From assembly GCA_964016885.1 (NCBI GenBank), contig OZ024741.1, positions 343,418,001-343,482,000 on the forward strand: DNA of 64,000 nucleotides, in the 5' to 3' direction. Of this stretch, positions 3,710-14,153 are shown in pieces; position 1 is the stretch's first letter, and every line of letters starts with the position of its first letter. The stretch comes from Eledone cirrhosa (lineage: Eukaryota). The notes under the pieces were generated by a model, which ran no database searches, was not told the DNA's origin, and saw nothing but the letters and a program-made list of their open reading frames with translations. A program made the position numbers and the translations under genes.

Positions 3710-3791
<82 letters not shown>

Positions 3792-3792
3792 G

Positions 3793-3851
<59 letters not shown>

Positions 3852-4028
3852 CAGTATCAGTAGAGGATCGGACGCCATGCTTTCCAGCATAGTTACGTCC
3901 CTTTACAATCTGAGTTCAAATCCCGCCGAGGTTGACTTTGCCTTTCATCCTTACGGGGTGGATAAAATAAAGTACCAGTAATACACTGGGTAATTGCTGG
4001 CCTTGTGCCTAAAGTAGAAACAATTATT
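3852..4028 (+). mobile_element. 5'-truncated tRNA-derived SINE fused directly to Tx1 A
   Basis: B-box GAGTTCAAATCCC, core GCCTTTCATCCTTACGGGG..GATAAAATAAAGTACC and tail CCTTGTGCCTAAAGTAGAAACAATTATT running straight into Tx1 ORF2 codons LNARG. Confidence 0.85.
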
Positions 4029-7000
4029 GAATGCGCGTGGCCTGGGCTCAAATTGGAAGCAAGCAATGCTTCTAAATGACCTCAGGTCACAACGTATAGA
4101 TGTGATGGTTATTTGCGAGGCCCGGATCAGCAACGTGTGACAGCTGGCCCCCGCCTTTGATGACTTTGAGATGCACGCATCTCTCTGTCAGCCCGGAGGC
4201 GGGGGTGGAGTTGTCGTTCTGCTGCAAAAACATCTGGGTCTCGCAACACAGATGGTACATTTGGACCCGGAGGGTCGACTAGTGGTTCTGGACCTTGGCA
4301 GTGGTAAAGGCGGAGCGTTTAGGTTGGTAGCCGCCTACGGCCCTTTCGGGTCAATGCGGCCGGACTTCTTCCATCGTCTGGAGACTTTTCTAGGGACGTC
4401 CCGCTCCTTGCTATTAGTGGGGGACTGGAATGGTATCCTAGATGCACGCTGGGACTACGTAGGGGCCTGCCCCGATAGAGAGGGGTGTAATAGCCTCAAA
4501 GGGTTAATCGGTCGATTTGACCTGGCCGATAGATATCGACTAGATTTTCCGACTGCGCCAACCTGGACTTGGGCAAATCGTAGCGGATCATCTAGGTCGT
4601 ACCTAGATAGGTTCTTAGTTAGAATTAAGGATAAGGACTTTTTAAGTTGTCCAAAAATGCGCATGGTTGGCTATTCAGACCACAAATTAGTGACCTGCAT
4701 GGTCAACCTTGACAGAACTCATAGACAGGGCCCCGGTTACTGGAAGCTCAACTTGTCCTTGCCGGCAAGTAGAGCCTACAGGAATCGGATTAGTACGTTA
4801 GTTAAGGAACGGTTGACTGGAGCGATCGTCAACAGCAGGTGGTGGGTATCTCTAAAGAGAGAGATTAGAGTAGTCTCGATAGAATTTAGTAAGGTTCTAG
4901 CTGCGGATAGGAATAGGAAGGAAAGGGAGCTAATAGATAGAGTAGAAGAGGCAATTAGAAGCGGCGACGTGGCCAGAGTGCTAGCGTCGAGAACGGCTTT
5001 GAGCCAGTTTTTCGACGCGAAGCACGAAGGCTGCGTTGTCCGAAGTAAAATACGTGCTCTAGGGAACGAGGGGACCAAAGCTGTTAGCTGGGCCCGCGTG
5101 ACAGAGGCCAACAGTGGAACTAAATCCACCATCCGGTCTTTGCGAGACCTGGATGGACGAGCGATTCTTGAGCCTAAGCAGATGTGTGAGGCCTTTCAAA
5201 GGCACTTTGCCCGACTGTTCGGGAGGGGCGGGGAGCCGGTTGGGAACGTGGACTTCGGTCCATACCTCGACGGCCTGCCGCGCCTCTCGGACAGGGAGGC
5301 GAAGTCCTGCGAGGAGCCGATTTCGGCCGCTGAGATAGAGGACGTGCTGAGCCAATGCGGCAAACGCAAATCCCCGGGTCTCGATGGTCTTCCTTACGAA
5401 TTATATCTAGCTATGCCGGACTTGTTCCCCGATCTCCTCGAGGTGGTCTACTGCAACTGGCAACAGAACGGGAGAATTCCCTGTACTGTGACCAAGGGCG
5501 TAGTTACGCTAGTGAGGAAGGACGAGAACAAGGGGGACGAAATAAGTAACTTCAGGCCCATAACACTGCTAAATACAGAGTTACAGATTTTGGCCAAGGT
5601 GCTAGCAAAGAGGTTGGCGCTTGTCGTGGGCAACCTGGTGGGAGATGCGCAGACATGCGCTATCCCGTCCAGGTCCATCCATGACAACCTCCACCTCATG
5701 CGATACATCATAGAGAGGGTTGGGAACGAACCCGGCTTTGGTGGGGCTCTGATCAACTTGGATCAATCTAAGGCGTTCGATAGGGTCGACCATGGTTACC
5801 TGGATGCGGTGCTAGCGGCGACAGGCTTCGGACCCGTTTTCAGGGGCTGGATCACTGTTATGCACAGCAGCCGCATCTGCTCTAGGGTCAAGGTGAACGG
5901 CTACCTCTCGGAGCCGTTCAAAATCGCGCGGTCCATCCGACAAGGGTGCCCTCTCTCCTCCCTTCTGTATGTGTTGACTCTAGAGCCACTACTGCGGAAG
6001 TTGGAGTTGTTGCAGGGCATCCCTTTGGAACCGGGATTGCGGAAAGCGGTGTCGGCCTACGCCGATGACGTGACAGTAATGGTGTCGACGGCCTCCGAAA
6101 TCGAGGCGGTCGGCACCTTACTGGAGGAGTACGAAAAGTTCACAGGGGCTAAGCTGAACCGGGACAAGTCGATCGGTTTGCAACTCGGCACGTGGAGGGG
6201 CAGACCGATGCCCTCCGATGGCGTCGTCGGACGCTGGACGGAGGGCCCGGTGAAGTTGCTCGGGGTCTGGTTCGGACCGGACCTCCAGGTGGAGAAAAAC
6301 TGGGCGGAGGTTACGAACAGGGTGTTTGCACTGACCCAGAAGTGGGCCAGTTGCAAACTATCCCTGAAAGGTCGGGCGGAGGTGGCGAACACCTACATAG
6401 CGTCCGTCATCTACTACCGCCTGACCGTAGTGCCCTGCCCAAGGGAAACCCTCACCAAGATGGAGCGCGCGCTCTTCCAATTCCTTTGGAAGAGGCGGGC
6501 TCCTATGGTGAGGAGATCCATCTGCTGTCAACACCCTTCGAAAGGAGGGCTGGGGATGCCGTGGCTAATGATGCGTAAACACGCATTAAGGCTACGGCAC
6601 CTCTACGTATTCCTCACCGGACAACCGGTGTGGGCCTCGTTTGTAAGACGAACCTTTCCCAGACTCGTCTCACTCACCGAGCTGCAATCCTGGGTCAAGC
6701 AAAGACCGAGAAAACTGGGCGCCTGGCACACTGAGTGTGCCCAGGCGCTCACCGCCCTCTGGCAGGCGGATCCGGTTAGCAGTGGAGACTCCACCGCAAC
6801 ATTCTATAGAGGGCTGGTACGCAGCAGGTGCGACGACGCCCTCGGAGAAGCCCTAGACATGGAGGAGGACGAACTGGCCAGCCTGTTCGGTAGGACATTC
6901 AGCCCGGGACCTATGGACAACTTCCAGAAGTCCCTGGCCTGGCAGTGCTACCGAGGGGCTTTACCCGTTCGAGAAAGGCTCTACAGACACGGGCGCCCGG

Positions 7001-12900: not shown

Positions 12901-13341
12901 GGCAGGGATCCCTCAAAAAAGATTTGCCCTAGATGCGTGCGTCACGAAGAAACCGTAGCGCACGCATTGGTGCAATGTCCGGGCGTGGCTGATCTGTGGG
13001 GCTACGCCGAACAACTGCTGTCGCGGGTGGCGCCGATTAAATTGACCGCCGAGTCCGTGATGACAATCAAACCGCCTCCCCTCTTCACAAAGGAAGCAAA
13101 GGCGGTTTTTCTGTGCGTAATAGCCATGTTGAAAGAGGTTGTTTGGTGGACACGATTGAAAGGTCTGAGGTCAGGCAACTTCCTCACTGGCCATAGTCTG
13201 GTCTACTTCTTCCGATATCACTTCGGAAGAAGGATAAGAATGGAGAGAGAGGTGCTTGGCCACAGGCAGTTTTATGAAAGGTGGGTGATAGTGGCGAGAA
13301 TGGCTCGTGTAAATGGGCCTTCTCTGTATACCATCCTGTAG
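9904..13341 (+). CDS. Tx1 B ORF2, intact 1145 aa APE-RT-CCHC polyprotein
   Basis: LNARG, CET, GDWN, YLDR, TDH (APE); RT motifs including YADD; C-terminal CPRC...HALVQC. Confidence 0.95.
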   Translation: MDVLRVGCLNARGLGSTWKQAKLLNDLRSCSINVMVICETRISVMRQLAPTFDDFEVHASLCQPGGGGGVVVLLQKHLGLAVQVVHSDPEGRLLVLDVGSSESAALRLVAVYSPFGAERPDFFQRLETFLGTSRSLLLAGDWNDILDARWDYAGACPNRGGCNSLKGLLDRFNLVDRYRLDFPTVPTWTWRNHSGQSRSYLDRFLVRSKDRDILSCPEMRTVGYTDHKLVTCVVNLEKTHRQGPGYWKLNLSLPAKETYRNRISRLVKERLTGAIVNNRWWASLKREIRTESISYSKMLAANRNRNEKELTGKLEEAIKSEDVARVLASRTALNQFFDAKHEGCVIRSKIRALGNEGAKAVGWARVTEVKSGNRSTIRSLQDEDGRVIREPKQMCEAFQKHFARLFGGGEGPGRGVDFGPYLDGLPRLSSKEAESCEGPISADEIGDALSQCSRRKSPGLDGIPYELYLAMPVFFSELLEAVYCNWQQNGRIPCSVAKGVVTLVRKDEKKGDSINNFRPITLLNTELKILAKVLAKRLALVVGGLVGDAQTCAIPSRSIHDNLHLMRYIIERVGNKPGFGGALINLDQSKAFDRVDHGYLDAVLAAAGFGPVFRGWITALHSNHICSRIKVNGYLSKPFEITRSIRQGCPLSSLLYVLTLEPLLRKLELLQGIPLEPGLSKAVSAYADDVTVMVSTDSEIEAIGTLLEEYERLSGAKLNREKSIGLQLGTWRGKPMPPDGVVGHWTEGPVKLLGVLFGPDLQVEKNWNEVTNKVFALTQKWAKCKLSLKGRAEVANIYIASVTYYRLTVVPCPKETLTTMERMLFQFLWKKRPPMVRRSICCQQPSKGGLGMPWLMMRRHALRLRHLQVFLTGQPVWAPFVKRAFPRLVSLTELQSWVKQRSGKLGDWHTECAQALRALWQAGRTIGGESTSSFYRGLVASRGDDTLGESLDMEEDELASLFGRTFGPGPMDNFQKSLAWQCYRGALPVRERLYRHGRPGRDPSKKICPRCVRHEETVAHALVQCPGVADLWGYAEQLLSRVAPIKLTAESVMTIKPPPLFTKEAKAVFLCVIAMLKEVVWWTRLKGLRSGNFLTGHSLVYFFRYHFGRRIRMEREVLGHRQFYERWVIVARMARVNGPSLYTIL

Positions 13342-13555
13342 GTAAAGAAGTAAAGGAGAGGGGAGCACCTTCTCCATGTGCTCCCCGGGCAAAGGATTGC
13401 ACACTTTTTCGGGGGTGTGTGCAACCCCCATCACGTCCCCTCCCTTTTGAGGTTATTTTCGATTATTTTCATGTTACACCCTTTTTACTCGATTATATGT
13501 AAACTCCCCCTTTGTATTTGTCCCTTCTTTTTATGCCTTTATGGTAAATAAAGAA

Positions 13556-13598
<43 letters not shown>

Positions 13599-14153
13599 CA
13601 TCTATCTATCTATCTATCTATCTTTCCATATATATATATGTATAATCCATGCGTGAAAATGGTTTGTATGGTTGTATGGAGGTATGTGAGATTTTACAGA
13701 TCTACAGAACAAAAATAGACTAGTTCGGATGAGTGATGCTTTGTAGCATAACGTTTTATAGCATCAATTCCGCATTTAATTGCAGTAATATATCTTTCAG
13801 ATATCAGCAGTTCGTTTAAATATTTCTAACTAGTTGGTGTATCGTTTTGAGCTTGAGGATAATATATATATCAAGCTTAACAAATTCTAATCATTAATTA
13901 CATATTACCCGATCCCCCAAAATGACGTGCCTGTCATGATATAAGGATACCCATTCAATGTAGCTTATGAATTTTGTCTTAAACATTGATACTAACCAAC
14001 AGTACCACTTTCTATCGAGGTAAAATTTATTGAGGGCAAAGCATTTTCTATTCGGCTGTGCAAATGTTATCTGTATTGATTTACCGTTTGTTTTTGAATA
14101 GCACGGGAGACTATTGCGTATACCTAACTATCAAACCATTAGCCTACTTTACA

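What the first reader, a model, noticed from the sequence alone, without database searches (positions are those of the whole stretch)
3790..13622. (TATC)n-specific Tx1 retrotransposons stacked head-to-tail, one with an intact ORF2
Seen: three Tx1 copies (3165-3672, A, B) all end in AATAAA(A)GAAA followed at once by (TATC)n on their sense strand, with no poly(A), and (TATC)n also lies upstream of each. A and B are clearly distinct families with diverged 3'UTRs and many amino-acid differences, yet share the target. B has an uninterrupted 1145-aa ORF2. Known: the Tx1 clade includes sequence-specific families such as the microsatellite-targeting Kibi/Koshi of fish. Inference: this is a GATA/TATC-specific lineage, possibly recently active; I do not recall one described from molluscs.
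Basis: partly seen in the sequence, partly recalled or inferred. Interest (0 to 1): 0.75.

Follow-up and report, generated by a model that had tools for sequence, protein, structure and literature searches.

The report
LINE clade that saturates GATA microsatellites
These are copies of young jumping genes that sit, always in the same direction, in short GATA (TATC) repeats across this animal genome, likely because their own DNA-cutting enzyme picks that repeat; repeat-seeking relatives are known, but I found no report of this target.

Summary
Confirmed with corrections. B (7759-13558) is a full-length L1/Tx1-type LINE with an open 1145-aa ORF2; its ORF1 is frameshifted. A and the 3165-3672 piece are one family (about 99% alike), 83% identical to B. 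A's 5' end joins a SINE fragment, not TATC directly. TATC is a target, not a tail. B has 1,319 exact 3' ends and A 1,910. Of 60 B copies read whole, 45 have (TATC)3+ just upstream (background 0.06%), none in the opposite orientation, and 17 show 13-24 bp target-site duplications running into non-repeat DNA. The inferred nick motif is short (TC^TATCT; some TATAT), so this is strong preference rather than strict microsatellite specificity. A, B and two further families form one clade, sister to an ATT-targeting clade. About 14,000 junctions exist, and 29 of 40 sampled TATC tracts abut one, so stacking likely reflects target saturation. Known kind (Kibi, Koshi), new target as far as my searches reach; Repbase was not checkable and Tx1 placement was not tested on a reference tree. 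This scan reported the same lineage before, at four other places in this genome and in other genomes.

The parts
3093..3164 (-). Host inverted-repeat arm with a short TATC run; 3' flank of the A-family fragment
   Evidence: 85% match over 81 bp to 13602-13682 on the opposite strand
3165..3672 (-). 5'-truncated A-family copy (end of ORF2 and 3'UTR)
   Evidence: 3 substitutions and 1 indel against A's 3' end
3673..3700 (-). (TATC)7 on the minus strand, 5' flank of the fragment
3795..3850 (+). (TATC)14 upstream of the SINE-A unit; mirrors 3673-3706 across a (TA)n centre
3852..4028 (+). SINE fragment lacking about 14 nt of its 5' end, 3' end fused to A; likely captured by template switching
   Evidence: many copies elsewhere, most ending at ATTAT
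4029..7704 (+). Element A, 5'-truncated within the endonuclease; stop at 4138-4140; open frame 4141-7440 (1099 aa)
   Evidence: 99.2-99.3% identical to A-family copies L180 and L190
7705..7756 (+). (TATC)13 between A and B
7759..13558 (+). Element B, full length
   Evidence: 40 of 60 sampled copies start within 30 bp of the same 5' end
7991..9870 (+). B ORF1 with a CCHC knuckle motif, frameshifted in an A-run in this copy
   Evidence: no Pfam hit for the open part
9904..13341 (+). B ORF2, 1145 aa: APE endonuclease, reverse transcriptase, C-terminal zinc motif
13559..13622 (+). (TATC)9 and (TATC)5, 3' flank of B, leading into the second inverted-repeat arm

Best explanation
A and B are two young families of one clade of L1/Tx1-type LINE retrotransposons that sit in one fixed orientation at pre-existing TATC motifs, likely because their APE endonuclease nicks the GATA strand at TC^TATCT. 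Shown: fixed 3' junction, TATC on the 5' side, orientation, duplications of about 19 bp, abundance, youth. Inferred: the freed 3' end primes reverse transcription; the second nick falls about 19 bp downstream; the RNA likely reads a few bases into its own downstream TATC after the AATAAA signal and pairs with the primer, which would explain the exact phase and the missing poly(A). Each insertion leaves target on both sides, and the clade already abuts most sampled TATC tracts, so later copies of any member family likely land beside earlier ones in the same direction. That would give the head-to-tail stack without a special stacking mechanism. The SINE at A's 5' end was likely captured by a template jump during A's reverse transcription.
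For: Exact 3'-end counts: B 1,319, A 1,910. First 90 of 1,319 B ends: 83 read AAAT[A/C]TAT[C/A]T, 75 of them TATCT. B ends 31-90 fetched whole: (TATC)3+ within 60 bp upstream in 45 of 60 (32 of 40 full-length, 13 of 20 truncated), GATA orientation 0 of 60, background 0.06% of 19,880 windows. Duplications holding non-repeat DNA in 17 of 60, 13-24 bp, median 19; 500 shuffles of flanks gave mean 0.1, maximum 2. A: 15 of 20 with upstream (TATC)3+; genome-wide 1,663 TATCT against 241 TATAT junctions while background is 566 to 13,451, about 160-fold preference. Same-orientation relative within 160 bp for 34 of 60 B copies, one opposite. 14,037 generic junctions, reversed control 24. 29 of 40 tracts chosen by repeat alone abut a relative. 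A, A2, B, D, E group with SH-aLRT 99 in a quick tree.
Against: 15 of 60 B copies lack (TATC)3+ upstream; several sit at a single TCTAT motif, in a satellite or in (TA)n, and at least one counted miss is an internal insertion rather than a true 5' end. 43 of 60 gave no informative duplication, many because both flanks are pure repeat; some have none at all. A in this window does not touch TATC at its 5' end. No biochemical test and no empty allele was seen. The hairpin loop tied to target choice in L1 is nearly the same in the TATC and ATT clades, so the endonuclease determinant is not evident. The tree is a quick one without bootstrap and without named Tx1 references.
Confidence: 0.85

Rival explanations
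1. TATC is an element-encoded 3' tail added at random sites; upstream TATC comes only from nesting in earlier tails.
For: Every sampled copy has TAT-type bases right after its 3' end; 34 of 60 have a relative next door; most sampled TATC tracts abut these elements.
Against: In 17 of 60 copies the bases after the element's last 2 nt are duplicated upstream and run into non-repeat DNA with no extra TATC units; many upstream tracts border unrelated DNA; 11 of 40 sampled tracts have no element.
Confidence: 0.04
2. The endonuclease is loosely specific for TA-rich steps, and the target is chosen mainly by pairing of read-through TATC RNA with the nicked strand, so targeting is inherited through the RNA.
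For: No poly(A), exact junction phase, AATAAA only a few bases from the end; 241 A junctions at TATAT; hairpin loop almost unchanged between TATC and ATT clades.
Against: Endonuclease domains within the TATC clade share many residues that differ in the ATT clade (58-63% between, 73-80% within); Tx1L endonuclease alone is sequence-specific in vitro (PMC1950540, passages).
Confidence: 0.12
3. Insertion is broad and copies survive only in TATC tracts through selection, or the stack arose by DNA duplication.
For: Some tandem copies are nearly identical (L111-L113); the window site lies in an inverted repeat.
Against: Selection gives no reason for one-base phase precision or for 0 of 60 in the opposite orientation; A and B are 83% identical and the fragment has its own truncation point.
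Confidence: 0.03

Closest known systems
Kibi (TC)n and Koshi (TTC)n, Tx1 clade, teleost fish (as described in PMC4494074 passages; original 2004 paper not read)
   Same: APE-type LINE inserted specifically in a microsatellite
   Different: Target is TATC, with a TATAT minority; host is likely an octopod (inferred); relationship to Kibi and Koshi not tested
Crocodilian Tx1 families on (TTCC)n or (TTTC)n (PMC4494074 section 15)
   Same: A group of related families preferring a tetranucleotide repeat
   Different: Those targets are pure pyrimidine runs; here the repeat is TATC and a sister clade uses ATT
Tx1L of Xenopus (PMC1950540 passages)
   Same: APE endonuclease with sequence-specific nicking; long target duplications (length recalled, not read)
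   Different: Tx1L targets one site in the Tx1D transposon, not a simple repeat
Recently active L1-Tx1 families of Octopus vulgaris (PMC13282606 Table 1)
   Same: 13 recently active L1-Tx1 families, 421 insertions, in an octopus genome; these families or relatives may be in that library
   Different: The word 'target' does not occur in that paper's main text; its library was not compared
Human L1 ORF2p (PDB 8sxt)
   Same: Best solved-structure match, E 8.6e-51 over residues 8-855
   Different: L1 uses TTTT/AA and carries poly(A); these copies have neither

Membership tests
L1/Tx1 group of non-LTR retrotransposons | ORF2 with APE endonuclease, RT and C-terminal zinc motif, no RNase H | tested here: met
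   Pfam Exo_endo_phos, RVT_1, zf-RVT (the last just under its cut-off) and no RNase H hit; motifs located
L1/Tx1 group of non-LTR retrotransposons | ORF2 closer to L1 than to R2-type proteins | tested here: met
   L1 ORF2p E 8.6e-51, R2 proteins 1.9e-20 or weaker, among solved structures only
Tx1 clade | RT groups with named Tx1 references in a tree | not testable with these tools
   The ten nearest clusters looked up carry no names; tree has no labelled Tx1 row
Tx1 clade | ORF1 with CCHC knuckle (feature recalled) | tested here: met
   CX2CX4HX4C read directly in ORF1 of B and A copies; no Pfam hit
Microsatellite-targeting Tx1 families (Kibi/Koshi type) | More than 20% of flanks in one repeat type (criterion of PMC4494074) | tested here: met
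   45 of 60 B and 15 of 20 A 5' flanks
Microsatellite-targeting Tx1 families (Kibi/Koshi type) | Repeat is a pre-existing target with target-site duplication | tested here: met
   17 of 60 informative duplications, shuffles at most 2; empty alleles not seen
Kibi, Koshi or the crocodilian families themselves | Target (TC)n, (TTC)n, (TTCC)n or (TTTC)n | tested here: not met
   Junction motif TATCT in 75 of 90 B ends
Microsatellite-targeting Tx1 families (Kibi/Koshi type) | Endonuclease nicks the target in vitro | not testable with these tools
   Needs purified protein

The most novel reading that the evidence does not exclude
The TATC clade has nearly saturated its target and renews it: every insertion splits one GATA tract into two and copies about five units, so much of this genome's GATA microsatellite stock is made by the elements that need it. 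Because the RNA reads into its own downstream repeat, the switch between the TATC and ATT sister clades was driven partly by RNA-primer pairing, making the target partly RNA-programmable.
Probability: 0.15. Interest if true: 0.75.

Novelty: new variant of a known kind. Interest (0 to 1): 0.45.

Why it matters
Sequence-specific APE retrotransposons are few, and how they change target is open. This genome holds open-frame members of two sister clades with different repeat targets (TATC and ATT), endonucleases about 60% identical, thousands of natural insertion sites, and a likely SINE partner. That makes domain-swap and RNA-swap tests direct. It also shows that GATA tracts here are mostly retrotransposon junctions, which matters for microsatellite markers and repeat annotation.

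Tried and rejected
Empty-site search: contigs of one sample and one RAD run laid on young copy L075 showed no joint skipping the element among the rows shown; its flank is repetitive and 21 rows were hidden, so this is uninformative. Idea that A prefers (TA)n more than B: the first 30 A ends suggested it, but genome-wide A 1,663:241 does not differ from the B sample 75:8 (Fisher p 0.5); B was not counted genome-wide for this. Intron-like GT..AG stretch in the A 5'UTR: no spliced joint in genomic contigs of one sample; no RNA was available. First duplication count of 22 included pure-repeat matches and was replaced by 17. The 40 hits were not used for flank statistics because the query ran into the flank. 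Rfam gave nothing at a gathering score. Protein atlas look-up of ORF1 gave no result. Named Tx1 references were not found. The careful tree did not finish; the quick tree is cited.

Full report
Observation. The window holds element B at 7759-13558 with an open 1145-aa ORF2 (9904-13341) matching APE, RT and zf-RVT models. Element A (4029-7704) is 5'-truncated, has a stop at 4138-4140, and is 82.6% identical to B in DNA and 83.3% in protein. The 3165-3672 piece is on the minus strand and differs from A's 3' end by 3 substitutions and 1 indel, so it is an A-family copy. All three end in AATAAA(A)GAAA, two bases, then TATC. A's 5' end is fused to a SINE fragment (3852-4028), and the (TATC)14 lies upstream of that. 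B's ORF1 carries two extra A's in an A-run relative to copy L062 and is frameshifted; this may be an assembly error in a homopolymer.

Abundance and age. Exact 3'-end patterns occur 1,319 times for B and 1,910 times for A; reversed controls gave 0. I fetched B ends 31-90 of the position-ordered list whole (60 of 1,319, all on C1). Forty are full length; 7 of 40 keep a 1145-aa ORF2 and 2 of 40 keep both ORFs. Thirteen of 60 are at least 99% identical to the window's B. A-family copy L190 has an open ORF2.

Target or tail. In the first 90 B ends, all begin AAAT, 83 read AAAT[A/C]TAT[C/A]T and 75 read TATCT. Upstream, 45 of 60 have (TATC)3+ within 60 bp (32 of 40 full-length, 13 of 20 truncated), against 0.06% of 19,880 windows in 200 kb of evenly spaced background; none has the repeat in the opposite orientation. 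Truncated copies matter most, since their 5' junctions cannot be element-encoded. Seventeen of 60 have duplications of 13-24 bp (median 19) that begin at the junction and include non-repeat DNA; 500 flank shuffles gave mean 0.1 and maximum 2. Reading those 17 by eye, the two bases before the nick are TC in 14 and the five after are TATCT in 14 and TATAT in 3; about six are not microsatellite tracts at all. These 17 are biased towards impure sites. For A, 15 of 20 copies fetched whole have upstream (TATC)3+, and genome-wide junctions are 1,663 TATCT to 241 TATAT against a background of 566 to 13,451, about 160-fold. Against the reading: 15 of 60 B copies lack the upstream tract, and no empty allele was obtained.

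Why they stack. Thirty-four of 60 B copies have a same-orientation relative within 160 bp; one flank has an opposite one. A generic junction pattern occurs 14,037 times (control 24), and one class of (TATC)4+ tract start 27,717 times (tracts preceded by C are missed). Of 40 tracts taken from the first 21 Mb of C1 by the repeat alone, one per cluster, 29 abut a same-orientation relative within 120 bp; all library entries used encode related ORF2s. This share is biased upward, because an insertion splits one tract into two and the pattern favours starts at element ends. Roughly half of sites occupied is a fair inference, and that is enough to give frequent stacking. Serial insertion at the same junction is visible in three A copies with nested duplications (L143-L145).

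Clade. Open or nearly open ORF2s of A, A2, B, D and E are 79-85% identical where compared and group with SH-aLRT 99 in a quick tree; their sister (with unnamed P0001) is family C, 66-69% identical. C has 6,214 exact ends and nearly all of 30 sampled ends run into ATT repeats; C copies are stacked in this window at about 28,200-39,600. Endonuclease identity is 73-80% within the TATC clade and 58-63% to C. The loop equivalent to the L1 hairpin (aligned) differs from C at one fixed position only; PMC1950540 (passages) reports that this loop modulates but does not alone set specificity.

Mechanism. Inferred from established target-primed reverse transcription: first nick on the GATA strand at TC^TATCT, priming on the freed end, second nick about 19 bp downstream. 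Read-through RNA pairing is inferred from the missing poly(A) and the exact phase and is untested. The SINE-A fusion is best read as a template jump, since the SINE's 3' end meets A's truncated 5' end with no duplication of its own and TATC flanks the whole unit; later insertion with deletion is not excluded.

Known context. PMC4494074 (passages and section 15; supplements could not be read, and may list further targets) names Kibi (TC)n, Koshi (TTC)n and crocodilian (TTCC)n/(TTTC)n families. PMC13282606 (first third of the text and passages) lists 13 recently active L1-Tx1 families in Octopus vulgaris without target analysis. PMC8967140 and PMC3747384 (passages) mention Tx1 without a TATC target. 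Searches listed no paper describing a TATC or GATA target; other papers there were seen as listings only. Repbase, Dfam and the 2004 original were not available. The host being an octopod is inference from recalled repeat types and earlier scan notes, not tested.

Earlier scan notes. Four notes on other places in this genome and three on other genomes report the same lineage. My counts were made independently and agree.

Verdict. Real, young, strongly TATC-preferring LINE clade; a new target for a known kind of element. Interest 0.45.

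Noticed in passing
window 28,200-39,600, minus strand: Stack of sister family C copies separated by (ATT)n; 6,214 exact ends genome-wide, ORF2 66-69% identical to the TATC clade, several open ORF2s elsewhere.
   Followed up: yes
window 3852-4028 and many loci (e.g. L157:7143-7312): A SINE whose 3' end resembles these LINE ends and whose copies often show duplications starting ATTAT; likely the non-autonomous partner of the ATT clade.
   Followed up: partly
window 3093-3164 and 13602-13682, centre 3673-3850: The site is an inverted repeat; both arms carry TATC and both received insertions in mirror orientation. 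A hammerhead-like motif (recalled from Penelope-like elements) lies at about 3075-3105; Rfam gave no such hit.
   Followed up: partly
L180 and L176, 5'UTR of A-type copies: An intron-like stretch of about 68 nt with canonical donor and acceptor; no spliced joint in genomic contigs of one sample.
   Followed up: partly
L176, L180, L184: Copies sharing the A 3' part carry different 5'UTR, ORF1 and endonuclease regions, suggesting 5' module swapping.
   Followed up: no
L061-L120, 3' ends: The last two element bases track subfamily: AAATA in 31 copies averaging 96.4% identity to B, AAATC in 28 averaging 98.6%.
   Followed up: partly
L091 and L094, 3' junction: The same unrelated sequence begins right after a TA at the 3' junction, likely a later DNA transposon insertion.
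   Followed up: no
window 41014-42474 (+) and 54606-55514 (-): Broken frames of other retroelements (an RT-like frame and a Penelope-like frame, labels recalled).
   Followed up: no
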